Shown: positions 5,463-37,181, counted from the stretch's first letter. The stretch: DNA of 41,294 nt from a virus (IMGVR_UViG_3300033074_000010:1-41294), one strand, 5' to 3'. The notes: generated from the letters alone by a model not told the origin. A program made the numbers and translations.

Positions 5463-6539
5463 ATGCTATTAACTTTAGCGCCACAGGGTTTATCTATGAG
5501 CTTACTTACATCTCTAATCAGCCACCAGATATGGCTGCAACGCACCGCATCCGGTGAAGTGAAAGGCCTCGCACCGTTCATTAAGGAGATGCGGGACGAA
5601 ATAAAACGGCAGGTTCTGTTATTCGGCGACGACGGGCGAAGCTCGCGCCGACTGAATAAATTGTTACGCGACCTTGAAGAAGCGCTAACCGGACTTACAG
5701 GCGACTGGCAAACAAAGCTGACAGAAGACCTTAAGGAACTGGCGGCGTATGAGGCGGAGTGGAACGTAAAGACGCTGACAGCTAACGTAGACGCGGAATT
5801 TGTCACGCCTACCGCGGAACAGGTGTGGGCCGCTGCCGAGTTTCAACCTCTGTCGCTAAGTGACAAGCCCGTTGACTTCACCAAGCTGATGTCAGGCTGG
5901 GGTGAAGCGGAGGTCGCGCGCCTTGTAACTGGCGTTAAGATGGGCTTTGTGCAAGGCCAAACCACACGGCAGATTGTTAAAGAAGTAGTTGGTAAAGGCG
6001 GCCTGGCTGACGTATCAGAGAAACACGCCGCTACAGTAATCCGCACCGCGCTGTCCCACGTGTCCAACGAAGCCCGTAATGAGACATACCGCCAGAACGA
6101 CGACATCATCGAGAAATACGAATGGGTGTCAACGCTGGACAGCCGCACCAGTACGATTTGCAGAGCCAGAGACGGAATGACGTGGGGAATCGGTAAAGGG
6201 CCAATGCCCCCTGCCCATCCGAACTGCCGGTCGTGCACGGCGCCCGTAATTAGCTCGGAGTTCGACTTCCTCGATAAAGGCGCAAAACGTGCGGCTAAGG
6301 GCGCGGACGGAGGTACTCAGGTAAGTGCGGACACCACCTATTACGAGTTCCTGAAACAACAACCGGCATGGTTTCAGGACCAGGCGCTCGGCCCTGTTCG
6401 CGGTAAGATTTTCCGTAACAGCGGTATATCGCCGGAAGAGTTTCGCGTAATATCTGTAGATGGTTTCGGTAATCCGCTGACGCTTAAGCAGATGGCGGAA
6501 CTCGATAAACGTGTTGCTGATTATCTGAAAGGGGATTAA
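5463..6539 (+). CDS. head morphogenesis / minor head protein (putative)
   Basis: 358-aa ORF after portal, gene-order analogy to SPP1 gp7 / Mu F-like; alternative ATG at 5496. Confidence 0.55.
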   Translation: MLLTLAPQGLSMSLLTSLISHQIWLQRTASGEVKGLAPFIKEMRDEIKRQVLLFGDDGRSSRRLNKLLRDLEEALTGLTGDWQTKLTEDLKELAAYEAEWNVKTLTANVDAEFVTPTAEQVWAAAEFQPLSLSDKPVDFTKLMSGWGEAEVARLVTGVKMGFVQGQTTRQIVKEVVGKGGLADVSEKHAATVIRTALSHVSNEARNETYRQNDDIIEKYEWVSTLDSRTSTICRARDGMTWGIGKGPMPPAHPNCRSCTAPVISSEFDFLDKGAKRAAKGADGGTQVSADTTYYEFLKQQPAWFQDQALGPVRGKIFRNSGISPEEFRVISVDGFGNPLTLKQMAELDKRVADYLKGD

Positions 6540-7000
6540 TGATGGGCTTTTTCAAAGTAACTGATGTGCCGTCGCGTCGCGTAGTCCAGTACGCTCGTGT
6601 GTCTGGCTCCGGTGAGAACGTGGTATTTATTGAAGATGAAAGTGTACTGGGTACACCAGTAGACGATATGCCGTTTGCGGACAAGACTGGTATTGCGCTG
6701 CCTGCGGCAGGTATGCTTTACGAGATTCCGTATCTGGCGGACGCTGGCGACGTGTATTTCTCTGCACAACCACAGGACGTCGAACTGGCAGACGGCAGCG
6801 CCACTATCACTGTCGAGGTTAAGGCGGGCAAAGCACCATACGCGCTGACCTGGTACAAAGACGGTAAGGAAGTGGTAAACGCCCCGGAAGAGGCTTTGTC
6901 TCTGACGGTTAATGCGGTGGGTGAATACTTCGTTAAAGTTACTGATGCCGATGGTGTAGAGGCCGTAAGCAAAGCGGCGAAGGTCACTAAGCCAGAATAA
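6539..7000 (+). CDS. hypothetical structural protein with Ig-like C-terminal region
   Basis: 153-aa ORF; C-terminal segment (ATITVEVKAGKAPYALTWYKDGKEV) resembles Ig-like domains. Confidence 0.4.
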   Translation: MMGFFKVTDVPSRRVVQYARVSGSGENVVFIEDESVLGTPVDDMPFADKTGIALPAAGMLYEIPYLADAGDVYFSAQPQDVELADGSATITVEVKAGKAPYALTWYKDGKEVVNAPEEALSLTVNAVGEYFVKVTDADGVEAVSKAAKVTKPE

Positions 7001-7025: not shown

Positions 7026-7089
7026 AGCGCCTGTGACTATTCCAGTTATTCCACCGAATTGTAAATGTTAGAATAAACTATTCGAATAG

Positions 7090-7118
7090 TTGACTTTTCA
7101 CCAAAAATGTGCTAAGCT
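7090..7118 (+). promoter_or_regulatory. sigma70-like promoter (extended -10)
   Basis: TTGACT(7090-7095), 17 nt, TGcTAAGCT(7110-7118); 16-bp perfect palindrome AACTATTCGAATAGTT (7076-7091) overlaps the -35. Confidence 0.55.
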
Positions 7119-7121
7119 CCA

Positions 7122-7230
7122 CCTGAGCTTGTGAAGTATGAACAAGCGACCGCGGCACGGCAGGTAACGGAGCCGGACGTTAAGTCCGAGTGTAGTTACG
7201 CTGACGCGTTCGGAAGGGCCATACTCTATT
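7122..7230 (+). ncRNA. candidate structured RNA / cis-regulatory leader, copy A (family unassigned)
   Basis: No ORF of 60 aa or more; 5' 34 nt identical and 3' ~31 nt near-identical to 36852-36963; conserved hairpin GCTTGT-9nt-ACAAGC. Confidence 0.4.
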
Positions 7231-33519: not shown

Positions 33520-33550
33520 TTGTTTCTCTCCTCTCGTTTGGTATGGGCTA

Positions 33551-33579
33551 ACTATAATAGTGAACTATTCACTTGTCAA
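33551..33579 (-). promoter_or_regulatory. sigma70-like promoter with conserved box (site 4)
   Basis: Read on - strand: TTGACA (33574-33579), 17 nt, TATAGT (33551-33556); palindrome AATAGTGAACTATT 33556-33569; divergent from the Cro-like gene. Confidence 0.6.
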
Positions 33580-33643
33580 TGGGCTTTTATAAAATAATTA
33601 ATATGGTACTATTCACATATCAACTGACTAAGGAGTAATTGAC

Positions 33644-33859
33644 ATGCAACCATCTGAACTAGGCATCCGTGTAGAGCAACGCCGTAAAGAACTCGGCATC
33701 TCCCAGCGCCGTCTGGCTGTCCTGACCGGCGTTTCTCAGGGCGCGATTAACCAACTGGCACTCGGCGTAACTCAGGACGTCCGCCCTGCAACGCTGTTTA
33801 AACTGGCGGAAGTGCTGGAAGTAGACGCCAAGTGGCTGGCGTTAGGTGAAGGGGCTTAA
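33644..33859 (+). CDS. HTH transcriptional regulator, XRE/Cro-like
   Basis: 71 aa; HTH ISQRRLAVLTGVSQGAINQL; strong RBS AAGGAG (33630-33635). Confidence 0.75.
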   Translation: MQPSELGIRVEQRRKELGISQRRLAVLTGVSQGAINQLALGVTQDVRPATLFKLAEVLEVDAKWLALGEGA

Positions 33860-33874
33860 AGCCCCTTTCTTTTT
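33851..33874 (+). terminator. rho-independent terminator
   Basis: Stem GGGGC/GCCCC around the stop codon followed by TTTCTTTTT. Confidence 0.55.
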
Positions 33875-36263: not shown

Positions 36264-36313
36264 TGTATAATCCTTGTGCTTACTTTGATGATTTATGCTT
36301 CGGCCCCGACGTT

Positions 36314-36547
36314 CTAGCGTTGGGGTTTCTTTTGTCTACGCACCGCATTAACCCACTCCCCTTCGCTACGGTAAAAACTGCAATCAAGGATATCCTCTAT
36401 AGAAAATTTAACTATTTTAGTGGGTCCACAAAAGTTATAAGGGAAAAGTTCTACATAACACCCATCGTCGGTTATATTTGACGCAATCTTGAAATAATAT
36501 TTAATGCTGCCGTCTTCGCGGAAGCTACAACCCATACGCCCAATCAT
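36314..36547 (-). CDS. hypothetical protein (77 aa), AT-rich
   Basis: ORF track; start overlaps stop of AlpA-like gene. Confidence 0.45.
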   Translation of the reverse strand: MIGRMGCSFREDGSIKYYFKIASNITDDGCYVELFPYNFCGPTKIVKFSIEDILDCSFYRSEGEWVNAVRRQKKPQR

Positions 36548-36714
36548 TTCACGTTCTCCTTAATCCACGCTTCAACTTTATTACGGTCGAATGTTCCCGG
36601 CATCCGGCGACCCATTACTTTAACGCCGCAATCTGGAAACTTTCCACTCTTAATCCAGTTATTAATTGTCTGGCGGGTGACACCGATTAATTCTGCAACT
36701 TCATTGATAGTCAT
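36544..36714 (-). CDS. AlpA-like HTH DNA-binding protein
   Basis: MTINEVAELIGVTRQTINNWIKSGKFP matches AlpA/MerR-like phage regulator pattern; ATG 36714 after AGGAGA (track ORF extends to 36804). Confidence 0.65.
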   Translation of the reverse strand: MTINEVAELIGVTRQTINNWIKSGKFPDCGVKVMGRRMPGTFDRNKVEAWIKENVK

Positions 36715-36743
36715 TTCACGTTCTCCTATGTAAGATATACCGA

Positions 36744-36772
36744 AGTATAAGGCGGTAACTTTGTAAAAGCAA
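36744..36772 (-). promoter_or_regulatory. sigma70-like promoter for leftward early operon
   Basis: Read on - strand: TTGCTT (36767-36772), 17 nt, TATACT (36744-36749). Confidence 0.5.
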
Positions 36773-36794
36773 CCAAAACACCACACAAAGTTAC
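36755..36794. promoter_or_regulatory. inverted repeat, candidate operator
   Basis: 10-bp arms GTAACTTTGT (36755-36764) and ACAAAGTTAC (36785-36794) separated by 20 bp; left arm overlaps promoter spacer. Confidence 0.45.
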
Positions 36795-36819
36795 TAAAAT
36801 ACAAAAGATGCTACTAGTA

Positions 36820-36848
36820 TTGACTTTTACTGAGAAATATGGTAAGCT
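36820..36848 (+). promoter_or_regulatory. sigma70-like promoter (extended -10)
   Basis: TTGACT (36820-36825), 17 nt, TGgTAAGCT (36840-36848); same hexamers as promoter at 7090-7118. Confidence 0.55.
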
Positions 36849-36851
36849 CGT

Positions 36852-36963
36852 CCTGAGCTTGTGAAGTATGAACAAGCGACCGCGGTGCGCGGCAGGCGAA
36901 ACGAGCACGTCTCGACGTGTGGAGTGAGCCTCGCTGACGCATTCGGAAGGGCCATAGTCTATT
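36852..36963 (+). ncRNA. candidate structured RNA / cis-regulatory leader, copy B (family unassigned)
   Basis: Paralogue of 7122-7230; no ORF of 60 aa or more on + strand; identical 5' 34 nt and near-identical 3' block. Confidence 0.4.
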
Positions 36964-37118
36964 ATAATTCCCCGCCTAAATATCTAAGTTATTGATTTGC
37001 CGTAGGTCAGAACCGCAAGCTCACTCACTCACTCTTGGTGCCTTCGGCACCACGTTCGTTTCGTTTCGCTCGCTACCCCATTAAACAAAAGAATCACAAC
37101 GGCAACGTAACTAATCTC

Positions 37119-37147
37119 TTGCACACCCCAATATAATAGGGTACTAT
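37119..37147 (+). promoter_or_regulatory. promoter with conserved box (site 6)
   Basis: TTGCAC (37119-37124), 17 nt, TACTAT (37142-37147); box ATATAATAGGGTACTATTCAC; leader AAACGAGACAGAGGAG precedes ATG. Confidence 0.5.
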
Positions 37148-37181
37148 TCACTTATCGAAACGAGACAGAGGAGTGAGGGTT

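What the first reader, a model, noticed from the sequence alone, without database searches (positions are those of the whole stretch)
36744..36848. Divergent control region with a 10-bp inverted repeat between leftward and rightward promoters
A leftward promoter (TTGCTT-17-TATACT, 36744-36772) for the AlpA-like/primase operon and a rightward promoter (TTGACT-17-TAAGCT, 36820-36848) for RNA-like element copy B are back to back. Arms GTAACTTTGT and ACAAAGTTAC (36755-36764 and 36785-36794) lie between them, the left arm overlapping the leftward promoter spacer, and an 8-bp palindrome TACTAGTA (36812-36819) abuts the -35 of the rightward promoter. This looks like a regulatory switch point for the two genome arms.
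Basis: seen in the sequence. Interest (0 to 1): 0.45.

Follow-up and report, generated by a model that had tools for sequence, protein, structure and literature searches.

The report
Back-to-back early promoters in Kagunavirus

Summary
The window is a ~41-kb Kagunavirus (Guernseyvirinae) genome. Every motif in the finding sits exactly where stated. None stands out from chance on sequence alone: both promoters match consensus only 8/12, a 10-bp inverted repeat is expected ~1.8 times per genome, and the window holds 103 8-bp palindromes.

Comparison with about 60 related loci changes the picture:
- **Promoters.** The leftward TTGCTT-17-TATACT and rightward TTGACT-N14-TGn-TAAGCT hexamers and spacing are invariant while their spacers diverge. 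The same divergent layout recurs in Jerseyvirus and other Kagunavirus lineages.
- **Linker.** The 47-bp linker is conserved and carries the strongest helically phased A-tract signal in the genome. Linker lengths in four lineages (15/37/37/47 bp) keep the same helical phase.
- **Inverted repeat.** The left arm exists only in one sub-lineage. The right arm persists in phages whose HTH has an identical recognition helix but no left arm, and in ST20, which lacks the HTH altogether.
- **Palindrome.** The 8-bp palindrome is present in 3 of 21 variants.
- **Rightward transcript.** The rightward promoter makes a structured ncRNA that ends at a hairpin. A third conserved promoter serves the right-arm genes.

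Verdict: real but ordinary divergent promoters. The operator/"switch" reading is largely unsupported.

The parts
36544..36714 (-). 56-aa excisionase-family HTH gene (ATG 36714), first gene of the leftward operon: HTH, 77-aa ORF, 42-aa ORF, 753-aa primase-helicase
   Evidence: ORF list; PF12728 HTH_17 E=2.4e-10; TIGR01764 32.8 bits against cutoff 28.8; phrog_66
36721..36726 (-). Shine-Dalgarno GGAGAA for the HTH gene
   Evidence: read from sequence
36744..36772 (-). Leftward promoter PL: -35 TTGCTT (36772-36767), 17-bp spacer, -10 TATACT (36749-36744); predicted start near 36737
   Evidence: The -10 (unconstrained in the retrieval) is invariant in 21 distinct variants while the spacer is 71% identical; the -35 is conserved in all three left-module types. 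Same hexamers and spacing in 41/44 HTH-anchored loci. Start site is inferred.
36755..36764 (.). Left arm GTAACTTTGT of the 10-bp inverted repeat, inside the PL spacer; present only in the type I sub-lineage
36773..36819 (.). 47-bp conserved A-rich linker between the two -35 hexamers, with helically phased A-tracts (centres 36766.5, 36776.5, 36788, 36797.5, 36804.5)
   Evidence: 92% mean pairwise identity, 31/47 columns invariant; A-tract centres; highest 10.4-bp A-tract periodicity in the window; linker lengths 15/37/37/47 keep helical phase
36785..36794 (.). Right arm ACAAAGTTAC; belongs to the conserved linker and is kept without the left arm and without the HTH gene
36812..36819 (.). TACTAGTA palindrome; not conserved (TACTGGTA in most relatives)
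   Evidence: 103 such palindromes in the window
36820..36848 (+). Rightward promoter P_B: -35 TTGACT, TG extended -10 at 36840-36841, -10 TAAGCT; predicted start near 36855
   Evidence: hexamers invariant, spacer 87% identical; TG present in all 27 loci retrieved without using the promoter sequence; duplicate at 7090-7118. Start site is inferred.
36853..36963 (+). 5' domain of non-coding RNA element B, paralogue of 7123-7230
   Evidence: direct repeats D3/D6; consensus fold with compensatory changes; no Rfam match
37036..37052 (+). GC-rich hairpin (terminator-like) ending RNA element B
   Evidence: a hairpin is kept at this place with different sequences in other variants
37119..37147 (+). Third promoter TTGCAC-17-TACTAT overlapping the genome-wide motif AATAGGGTACTATT (37135-37148); serves the first right-arm gene (ATG 37182)
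   Evidence: block 37085-37181 nearly invariant in 13 phages; motif 11 hits against 0.98 expected; 97% inverted copy at 15446-15480; PHIRE 'phage promoter' in fBC-Eco01 (PMC9825357)
7090..7230 (+). Copy A: identical promoter type (TTGACT-N14-TGC-TAAGCT, 7090-7118) plus RNA element A 5' domain

Best explanation
The region is the divergence point of a virulent Kagunavirus genome. Two non-overlapping promoters for the host sigma-70 RNA polymerase sit back to back.

PL (TTGCTT-17-TATACT) starts leftward near 36737. It transcribes a small excisionase-family HTH protein, two small ORFs and the primase-helicase.

P_B (TTGACT, TG-extended -10, TAAGCT) starts rightward near 36855. It transcribes a roughly 200-nt structured non-coding RNA, a paralogue of one made from an identical promoter at 7090, and this RNA ends at a hairpin. 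The right-arm protein genes are served by a separate conserved promoter at 37119-37147.

The 47 bp between the two -35 hexamers form a conserved A-rich linker with helically phased A-tracts. It most likely acts as curved, UP-element-like upstream DNA for one or both promoters, and its length is held to a fixed helical phase.

The 10-bp inverted repeat is not part of the conserved design. Its right arm is simply a stretch of the conserved linker. Its left arm is 7 lineage-specific bases in the otherwise free-to-vary PL spacer. It is either coincidental or a recent sub-lineage-specific addition. The 8-bp palindrome is chance.

Shown: sequence, conservation pattern, phasing and RNA covariation. 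Inferred: start sites, promoter activity, curvature and its effect.
For: - Identity of the phage.
- Hexamers against spacers: in 21 distinct variants the unconstrained PL -10 and the P_B -35 and -10 are 100% invariant, against 71% identity for the PL spacer and 87% for the P_B spacer. The PL -35 was the alignment anchor there; its conservation is seen independently.
- Module swaps: three unrelated left modules (types I, II, III) all keep a TTGCTT -35 and a -10 at exactly 17 bp.
- Breadth: 41 of 44 loci found only through the HTH protein show TATACT-17-TTG(C/A)TT facing TTGAC(A/T)-17-TAAGNT, including Jerseyvirus.
- Extended -10: the TG is present in all 27 loci retrieved without using the promoter sequence.
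- Genome-wide rarity: -35 >=5/6 together with TG occurs only at P_A and P_B on the + strand.
- Linker: 92% identity; the strongest phased A-tract signal of the whole window (cluster maximum 11.7, next best 8.9). Inter -35 distances of 15, 37, 37 and 47 bp all fall at 4.5-5.5 mod 10.5.
- RNA product: 95% of cells paired against 31-41% when the partners are slid; covariation score 0.206 against 0.106 (0 of 500 shuffles reach it); 5 pairs changed on both sides.
- Repeat not conserved.
Against: - No transcript data. Start sites and activity are inferred, and both promoters are only 8/12 to consensus, a quality that occurs about 215 times in the genome.
- The compared phages are related, so some invariance reflects shared ancestry.
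- The helical-phase argument rests on four linker classes (rough chance about 0.02-0.08).
- Curvature is predicted from A-tract phasing, not measured.
- Locally the 10-bp repeat is improbable (p = 0.0025).
- Its half-site GTAACT is enriched in this intergenic region in every lineage (3 against 0.43 expected in the window; 5 against 0.55 in ST20).
- GTAACT also forms a tight palindrome, GTAACTTCAAGTTAC, in Jerseyvirus, so some protein may read it.
Confidence: 0.7

Rival explanations
1. First reader's model. The inverted repeat is an operator. The small HTH protein encoded just downstream (or another phage regulator) binds both arms, which bracket the PL -35 and occupy its spacer. It thereby autoregulates the leftward operon and possibly couples it to the rightward promoter.
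For: - Position is right for a repressor: the left arm lies in the PL spacer and the right arm 12 bp upstream of the -35.
- Locally unlikely by chance (p = 0.0025).
- The arms are 30 bp centre to centre, about three helical turns, so on the same face.
- The half-site GTAACT(T) is enriched in the region and forms a 15-bp palindrome beside the orthologous HTH gene in Jerseyvirus.
- All 11 GenBank and 4 of 5 IMG/VR type I modules carry both arms over at least 9 bp; the fifth IMG/VR one is L069.
Against: - Type II phages encode an HTH with the same recognition helix (GVTRQTINNW) but have no left arm.
- ST20-type phages keep the right arm and five GTAACT sites but have no homologue of the HTH in the whole genome.
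- fBC-Eco01-type phages keep PL without the right arm.
- L069 has the left arm with a broken right arm.
- In 3 of 6 type I loci compared the repeat is only 9 bp, with no compensating change.
- The arm sequence is not repeated elsewhere in the genome (44 hits against 39 expected at <=2 mismatches).
- Genome-wide, about 1.8 such repeats are expected by chance.
- From general knowledge of the family: a 56-aa excisionase-family HTH has no dimerisation domain, and its relatives (lambda Xis, BldC) bind direct, not inverted, repeats.
Confidence: 0.15
2. The intergenic region is, or contains, the replication origin. Scattered GTAACT sites in both orientations, including the two arms, are iteron-like sites for the adjacent primase-helicase or another initiator. 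The curved A-tract DNA and transcription from PL and P_B help to open it.
For: - GTAACT is enriched in the region in every lineage, at different positions and orientations, independently of the HTH gene.
- The region lies immediately upstream of the primase-helicase operon.
- It has the strongest bent-DNA signal of the genome.
- GC is 45% against 51% for the genome.
- The cumulative GC-skew minimum lies at 36-37 kb.
- A promoter-driven non-coding transcript is produced here.
Against: - The GC-skew minimum coincides with the switch in gene orientation, so it is not diagnostic.
- There is no regular iteron array and no clear AT-rich unwinding element.
- Several GTAACT sites lie within the transcribed RNA or are homologous between lineages, so the counts are not independent.
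- The primase-helicase shows only an AAA_25 domain, with no recognisable origin-binding domain.
- GTAACT is common genome-wide (38 copies).
Confidence: 0.1
3. Nothing functional beyond genes. The promoter-like hexamers, repeat and palindrome are chance matches in an AT-rich intergenic spacer, and transcription of both arms starts elsewhere.
For: Each motif alone is at chance level. Several other 8-9/12 promoter-like sites lie in the same 500 bp.
Against: - Perfect conservation of the unconstrained hexamers, the 17-bp spacing and the TG, against diverged spacers.
- The PL -35 is kept across three unrelated left modules.
- The same architecture is found across genera with unalignable spacers.
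- The rightward promoter is duplicated together with its RNA at 7090.
Confidence: 0.05

Closest known systems
Divergent (back-to-back) sigma-70 early promoters of phages and plasmids, with curved or UP-element-like upstream DNA
   Same: Two outward-facing -35/-10 promoters with 17-bp spacers. They do not overlap (-35 to -35 = 47 bp). An A-tract-rich upstream region is shared, and host polymerase is used by a phage that, as far as I found, has no polymerase gene of its own.
   Different: No experimental mapping. One promoter uses an unusual TAAGCT -10 rescued by a TG extension. The rightward product is a structured non-coding RNA rather than an mRNA. Linker length appears constrained to a helical phase across lineages.
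Lambda-type PRM/PR or P2 Pe/Pc divergent switch with operators bound by dimeric repressors
   Same: Divergent promoters next to small HTH genes, with an inverted repeat overlapping one promoter.
   Different: Virulent phage with no repressor/integrase module. The arms are 30 bp apart rather than one helical turn. The repeat is absent from most relatives that carry the same HTH. There is no repeated operator family for this sequence. The genome's real repeated palindrome (AATAGnnnnCTATT) lies elsewhere, at 37135 and five other exact sites.
AlpA-type regulators: CP4-57/P4 AlpA (PF05930) and the Pseudomonas aeruginosa AlpA antiterminator, whose binding element lies in a promoter spacer (PMC9371919)
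   Same: A small phage HTH at the head of an operon. A candidate site (the left arm) lies between -35 and -10, as the ABE does in PalpB. Terminator-like hairpins lie downstream in the operon.
   Different: The protein is 56 aa and matches PF12728/TIGR01764, not PF05930. P. aeruginosa AlpA has eight helices, an N-terminal segment that enters the RNA exit channel, and its HTH near residues 128-142; none of that can fit here. The spacer site is missing in relatives with the same HTH.
PHIRE-predicted 'phage promoters' of Kagunavirus (consensus tgAATAGTa-ccTATTat-T; fBC-Eco01, Golestan papers)
   Same: Same phage genus. One copy of that motif lies in this same intergenic region (37135-37148).
   Different: That motif is not within the finding's coordinates. 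The two promoters of the finding are not annotated in the closest GenBank relative. In fBC-Eco01 the rightward module is a different sequence.

Membership tests
Sigma-70 promoter | -35 and -10 hexamers resembling TTGACA/TATAAT with a 16-18 bp spacer, A at -11 and T at -7 | tested here: met
   PL TTGCTT-17-TATACT and P_B TTGACT-17-TAAGCT, each 8/12 with A-11 and T-7. P_B has a TG extension. Match quality alone is at chance level.
Sigma-70 promoter | Hexamers and spacing conserved while the spacer sequence drifts | tested here: met
   The three unconstrained hexamers are invariant in 21 variants, against 71% and 87% spacer identity. The PL -35 is conserved in independently retrieved loci. 41/44 HTH-anchored loci across genera keep the architecture.
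Sigma-70 promoter | Mapped transcription start / activity with E-sigma70 | not testable with these tools
   No TSS data. The one Kagunavirus RNA-seq paper found (PMC12645636) gives gene-level timing only.
Dyad-symmetric operator of a dimeric HTH repressor | Two inverted half-sites about one helical turn apart | tested here: not met
   Arms are 30 bp centre to centre, with 20 bp between them.
Dyad-symmetric operator of a dimeric HTH repressor | Both half-sites conserved wherever the cognate regulator is conserved | tested here: not met
   Left arm absent in type II phages with an identical recognition helix. Right arm kept in ST20, which lacks the HTH. L069 has a broken right arm.
Dyad-symmetric operator of a dimeric HTH repressor | Overlap with core promoter elements | tested here: met
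   Left arm lies inside the PL spacer; the arms bracket the -35.
Dyad-symmetric operator of a dimeric HTH repressor | Protein binding to the site | not testable with these tools
   Needs EMSA or footprinting.
AlpA family (PF05930) / AlpA-type antiterminator | Sequence match to the Phage_AlpA family | tested here: not met
   No PF05930 hit at E <= 0.01. Best hits are PF12728 HTH_17 and TIGR01764 excisionase family.
AlpA family (PF05930) / AlpA-type antiterminator | N-terminal segment able to enter the RNA exit channel (multi-helix protein with a C-terminal HTH; PMC9371919) | tested here: not met
   The protein is 56 aa, and the HTH_17 match spans residues 1-54.
Excisionase-family HTH (TIGR01764 / PF12728) | Profile match above the curated cutoff | tested here: met
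   PF12728 41 bits (cutoff 27); TIGR01764 32.8 bits (cutoff 28.8). Nearest solved structure is mycobacteriophage Xis Gp37, 4j2n, at a weak E = 0.15.
Intrinsic terminator (for the inverted repeat) | GC-rich stem, 3-8 nt loop, U-tract | tested here: not met
   AT-rich stem, 20-nt loop, no T-run on either strand. It also lies upstream of both predicted starts. DNA hairpin is only -6.4 kcal/mol.
Intrinsically curved / UP-like upstream DNA | A-tracts repeated in phase with the helix, upstream of -35 | tested here: met
   A-tract centres are 10, 11.5 and 9.5 bp apart. Highest 10.4-bp periodicity in 41 kb. Curvature itself was not measured.
Phage replication origin | Iterons plus an AT-rich unwinding element next to the initiator gene | tested here: inconclusive
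   GTAACT enriched and GC 45%, but no regular array and no clear unwinding element. The skew minimum is confounded by gene orientation.
Any Rfam family (for the rightward transcript) | Covariance-model match | tested here: not met
   No hit at gathering threshold in the window. Only chance-level hits at E <= 10.

The most novel reading that the evidence does not exclude
The region could be a composite early control unit of a kind not described for Guernseyvirinae. A phase-locked, curved linker would couple the replication-operon promoter to a promoter for a structured RNA. In this lineage that RNA (element B) carries both a mimic of, and a stretch complementary to, the leader and Shine-Dalgarno of the first right-arm gene, so it would gate the right arm post-transcriptionally. 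GTAACT sites, including the two arms, would be read by an unidentified phage or host factor. In this sub-lineage that factor has acquired a second site inside the PL spacer.
Probability: 0.12. Interest if true: 0.6.

Novelty: new member of a known kind. Interest (0 to 1): 0.27.

Why it matters
It gives a comparative, testable map of where early transcription of Kagunavirus and Jerseyvirus phages probably starts. These phages are widely isolated for therapy and are almost unstudied at the transcription level. It also separates what is conserved (two promoters, a phased A-tract linker, a promoter-driven structured RNA, a third promoter with the genome-wide palindrome) from what merely looks regulatory in one genome (the 10-bp repeat and the 8-bp palindrome).

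The promoter pair itself is ordinary biology. The more interesting leads lie beside it: an unannotated structured RNA family present in one or two copies per genome in over 180 phage records, and the apparent conservation of helical phase between divergent promoters.

Tried and rejected
- **Rfam.** Searched the whole window at gathering threshold and both RNA copies at E <= 10. Only chance-level hits.
- **Repeat as a terminator or RNA hairpin.** Rejected: AT-rich stem, 20-nt loop, no U-tract, and it lies upstream of both predicted starts.
- **Arms as a genome-wide operator family.** AAGTTAC gives 8 hits against 5.4 expected; GTAACTTTGT at <=2 mismatches gives 44 against 39. Not enriched.
- **A type I left arm next to a different right module.** Looked for left arm without right arm. 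None found apart from L069, which has a point-damaged right arm.
- **The 86-aa TTG-start ORF** (36544-36804, annotated that way in phage AV104), which would make the promoter coding. Rejected: the N-terminal extension is not conserved between types, whereas the SD plus ATG at 36714 is.
- **AlpA-type antitermination from a spacer site.** Rejected on protein size and family.
- **HTH as reader of GTAACT.** Weakened, because ST20 keeps the sites without the protein.
- **Complementarity of RNA-B to the right-arm leader.** Significant only in the window-type variant (p about 0.003; 0.023 in L003), not in the L001 or ST20 variants, so it is not a general feature.
- **GC skew as origin evidence.** Confounded by gene orientation.
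- **Literature search for small RNAs of these phages.** The query was too broad and returned nothing relevant.

Full report
**What the window is.** A 2-kb query around the finding matches 256 phage records, nearly all Guernseyvirinae (Kagunavirus of E. coli, Jerseyvirus of Salmonella). The closest is Escherichia phage MirsaeidiM_Esher4. The window is therefore a virulent siphovirus genome of about 41 kb. Genes run leftward from 36714 down to about 25300: HTH, two small ORFs, a 753-aa primase-helicase and further replication genes. They run rightward from 37182. The 467-bp gap between these blocks holds the finding.

**Check of the observation.** All four motifs are exactly as described:
- rc(36744-36772) = TTGCTT-17-TATACT.
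- 36820-36848 = TTGACT-17-TAAGCT.
- GTAACTTTGT (36755-36764) is the perfect complement of ACAAAGTTAC (36785-36794), with 20 nt between.
- TACTAGTA lies at 36812-36819.

The leftward promoter is followed by GGAGAA (36726-36721) and the ATG at 36714 of a 56-aa protein.

On sequence alone nothing is remarkable:
- Each promoter is 8/12 to consensus and was not reported by the tool's scan.
- I count 215 sites of that quality in the window, against 264 +/- 16 in shuffles.
- Perfect 10-bp inverted repeats with 3-40 nt loops give 3 raw hits, against a shuffle mean of 1.8.
- The window has 103 8-bp palindromes.

Two points favour more than chance. The rightward promoter has a TG extended -10 (36840-36841), and -35 >=5/6 together with TG occurs only twice on the + strand of the genome, here and at 7090. 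A 10-bp match between the left module and the linker arises in only 0.25% of shuffles of the left module.

**Comparative evidence for the promoters.** I collected four sets of loci:
- 19 GenBank loci.
- 16 IMG/VR loci found through a linker pattern that did not include either promoter.
- 43 stretches found through the promoter-plus-RNA pattern.
- 44 found only through the HTH protein.

Three unrelated left modules are joined to the same linker:
- **Type I** (window, phiEc3 and others): HTH starting MTINEV.
- **Type II** (the majority): HTH starting MQHYMTQNEV.
- **Type III** (ST20-like): a 47-aa zinc-finger-like protein instead of the HTH.

All three keep a TTGCTT -35 and a -10 at exactly 17 bp (TATACT, or TATCTT in type III), although the spacers are unalignable: AGGCGGTAACTTTGTAA, GGATAGCGGGAATGTAA and ATGGTACTTCAAGCAAA.

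In 21 distinct control regions the PL -10 and the P_B -35 and -10 were not constrained by my extraction pattern, and they are invariant. The PL -35 (AAGCAA) was used as the alignment anchor there, so its invariance in that count is by construction; it is seen independently. The PL spacer is 71% identical and the P_B spacer 87%.

Of the 44 HTH-anchored loci, 41 show TATACT-17-TTG(C/A)TT facing TTGAC(A/T)-17-TAAG(C/G/T)T, including Jerseyvirus and a second Kagunavirus clade whose spacers and linker are unrelated. The exceptions keep PL. They either replace the rightward promoter by TTGAAA-18-TATAAT (fBC-Eco01 type, where the GenBank record annotates a predicted host promoter) or have an 18-bp spacer.

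This pattern, with hexamers and spacing fixed and everything between free, is what functional promoters show. I consider both promoter calls well supported, though still unmapped experimentally.

**The linker.** The 47 bp between the -35 hexamers are 92% identical across variants, with 31 invariant columns, more than either spacer.
- A-tracts are centred at 36766.5, 36776.5, 36788, 36797.5 and 36804.5, so the first four are spaced 10, 11.5 and 9.5 bp.
- A 10.4-bp periodicity measure of A-tracts peaks here at the highest value of the whole window (11.7, next cluster 8.9).
- The distance between the -35 hexamers is 47 bp in types I and II (46 in one contig), 37 bp in type III, 37 bp in the fBC-Eco01 type, and 15 bp in Jerseyvirus and the other Kagunavirus clade. 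That is 5.0, 5.5, 5.5 and 4.5 modulo 10.5.

I infer that this is intrinsically curved, UP-element-like upstream DNA, and that the angular relation of the two promoters is under constraint. That is an inference from four linker classes, not a measurement.

**The inverted repeat.** The right arm lies in the conserved linker and is present in types I, II and III; positions 36786-36794 are invariant. The left arm exists only in type I.
- Of its ten bases, TGT (36762-36764) is shared with type II, so only GTAACTT is lineage-specific.
- The HTH proteins of types I and II have the same recognition helix, IGVTRQTINNW, yet type II has no left arm.
- ST20, a complete type III genome, has no tblastn match to the HTH anywhere (best E = 0.023, over an unrelated 34-residue stretch) and still keeps the right arm.
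- fBC-Eco01-type phages keep PL up to six bases beyond the -35 and then diverge, so PL works there without the right arm.
- One type I contig (L069) has the left arm but CAAAGCAC in place of CAAAGTTAC.
- In three of six type I loci compared, the innermost pair is lost with no compensating change.
- The arm sequence is not repeated elsewhere in the genome.
- The arms are 30 bp centre to centre.
- The protein is a 56-aa excisionase-family HTH (PF12728, TIGR01764, phrog_66). Its relatives (lambda Xis, BldC) bind direct repeats as monomers, which is general knowledge and was not tested here.

Together these make a conserved two-arm operator for this HTH unlikely. A sub-lineage-specific site cannot be excluded.

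**A residual signal.** GTAACT occurs 3 times in the 467-bp region, against 0.43 expected from its genome density (Poisson p about 0.01, my arithmetic). It occurs 5 times against 0.55 in ST20, and 3-5 times in most other lineages examined, at partly different positions. In Jerseyvirus it forms GTAACTTCAAGTTAC just downstream of the rightward -10. Something may read this hexamer. An origin-type function for the adjacent primase-helicase is a possible rival, but the evidence is thin: there is no regular array, the GC-skew minimum is confounded by gene orientation, and only an AAA_25 domain is recognisable.

**The palindrome.** Position 36816 is A in 3 of 21 variants and G in 17, giving TACTGGTA. 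It is a chance feature of this genome.

**What the rightward promoter makes.** The promoter and the next 110 nt or so are duplicated at 7090-7230. In the phage database, 181 records match the 261-bp query that contains this element. In most listed records only the promoter-plus-RNA part matches, at a single place that appears to correspond to copy A.
- An alignment of 15 distinct A and B copies folds into a 5' hairpin plus a long irregular helix.
- 95% of cells are paired, against 31-41% when the partners are slid.
- The covariation score is 0.206 against 0.106, and no shuffle out of 500 reaches it.
- Five pairs have changed on both sides.
- Rfam has no match.

Element B continues to a GC-rich hairpin at 37036-37052, a position where other variants keep a hairpin of different sequence. 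Downstream, 37085-37181 is almost invariant in 13 phages. It contains TTGCAC-17-TACTAT overlapping AATAGGGTACTATT, one of 11 hits (<=1 mismatch; 0.98 expected) for the AATAGnnnnCTATT pattern. This is the 'phage promoter' motif that PHIRE picks up in this genus (PMC9825357).

So the right arm's protein genes have their own promoter, and P_B is primarily an RNA promoter. The phrase 'switch point for the two genome arms' overstates what the flagged 105 bp can do.

**Comparison with known systems.**
- The arrangement works like ordinary back-to-back sigma-70 promoters with shared upstream DNA.
- It is not a lambda- or P2-type switch: this is a virulent phage, the operator is not conserved, and the half-site spacing is wrong.
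- It does not fit the AlpA antiterminator paradigm. There the binding element does lie in a promoter spacer (PMC9371919), but the protein is a multi-helix factor with a C-terminal HTH near residues 128-142, whereas this one is a bare 56-aa HTH with no PF05930 match.
- The only Kagunavirus transcriptome I found (vB_Eco_K1B4, ST20-like; PMC12645636) gives gene-level timing only. It lists an HTH gene among four early genes and an 'AAA domain' gene among middle genes, and has no start sites.

**Verdict.** The promoter interpretation is supported by comparison. The operator, palindrome and switch interpretation is mostly not supported. The feature is a new, unannotated member of a familiar kind: no regulatory feature is annotated in the nearest GenBank relative. 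The interesting by-products are the structured RNA family, the phase-conserved curved linker and the unexplained GTAACT enrichment.

Noticed in passing
window 7123-7230 and 36853-36963 (promoters at 7090-7118 and 36820-36848): Two paralogous copies of a structured non-coding RNA 5' domain, each behind an identical TTGACT-N14-TGn-TAAGCT promoter. Covariation supports a hairpin plus a long helix (5 pairs changed on both sides; 95% paired against 31-41% in slid controls). No Rfam family matches. 181 Guernseyvirinae records match the query that contains it.
   Followed up: partly
window 37019-37069 versus 36896-36929 and 37156-37178: The 3' part of RNA element B (CTCACTCACTCACTC ... TCGTTTCGTTTCGC) is complementary to a segment of its own 5' domain. 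It is also complementary to the leader and Shine-Dalgarno of the first right-arm gene (CGAAACGAG...GGAGTGAGG; duplex -31 kcal/mol against -23 +/- 2.5 for shuffled leaders, p about 0.003). All 5 genome copies of GAGTGAG/CTCACTC lie in this intergenic region. The complementarity is absent in the L001- and ST20-type variants. The (CTCA)n run varies in length between phages.
   Followed up: partly
window 15450, 27896, 31455, 33556, 37135, 38131 (exact); 33600, 7085 and others (1 mismatch): Palindromic motif AATAGnnnnCTATT: 11 hits against 0.98 expected, none of 100 shuffles reaching it. It sits in or next to promoter-like sites at the starts of operons. Papers on relatives call it a promoter for a phage-encoded RNA polymerase, although I saw no RNA polymerase gene here. 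It looks more like an operator overlapping sigma-70 promoters.
   Followed up: partly
window 7076-7091: A perfect 16-bp palindrome, AACTATTCGAATAGTT, overlaps the first two bases of the -35 of the copy-A RNA promoter. It is built from the same AATAGT half-site in the opposite arrangement, and is conserved in about 28 of 30 distinct copy-A upstream regions.
   Followed up: partly
window 33520-33860: A second divergent control region. An XRE/Cro-type HTH gene (33644-33859, +) faces a leftward gene across two copies of the AATAG motif (33556, 33600) and the best consensus promoter of the region scanned (TTGACA-17-TATAGT, 11/12, minus strand 33579-33551). This looks more like a regulated switch than the flagged site.
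   Followed up: no
window 36755, 36789, 37107; ST20 (L112) 6539-6884; Jerseyvirus loci L086-L096: GTAACT is enriched in the HTH/right-arm intergenic region of every lineage (3 against 0.43 expected here; 5 against 0.55 in ST20). In Jerseyvirus it forms the palindrome GTAACTTCAAGTTAC just after the rightward promoter. The reader of this motif is unknown, and ST20 lacks the HTH protein.
   Followed up: partly
window 36302-36327: A terminator-like hairpin with a T-run on the + strand lies inside the leftward operon, between the 77-aa and 42-aa ORFs. It would stop rightward (antisense) transcription. The fBC-Eco01 record annotates terminators on both strands at the equivalent place.
   Followed up: no
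loci L011, L020, L024, L112 (ST20-type phages): The HTH gene is replaced by a 47-aa CxxC...CxxC protein (weak PHROG hits to HNH/endonuclease VII zinc fingers). The -35 of the leftward promoter and the whole rightward module are kept, with a 10-bp shorter linker.
   Followed up: partly
locus L080 / L021 (IMGVR_UViG_3300045988_013548): The contig runs into CTGTCTCTTATACACATCTCCGAGCCCACGAGAC, which I recognise from memory as a Nextera adapter, a few bases after the P_B -10. This is an assembly artefact in the public contig, not biology.
   Followed up: no
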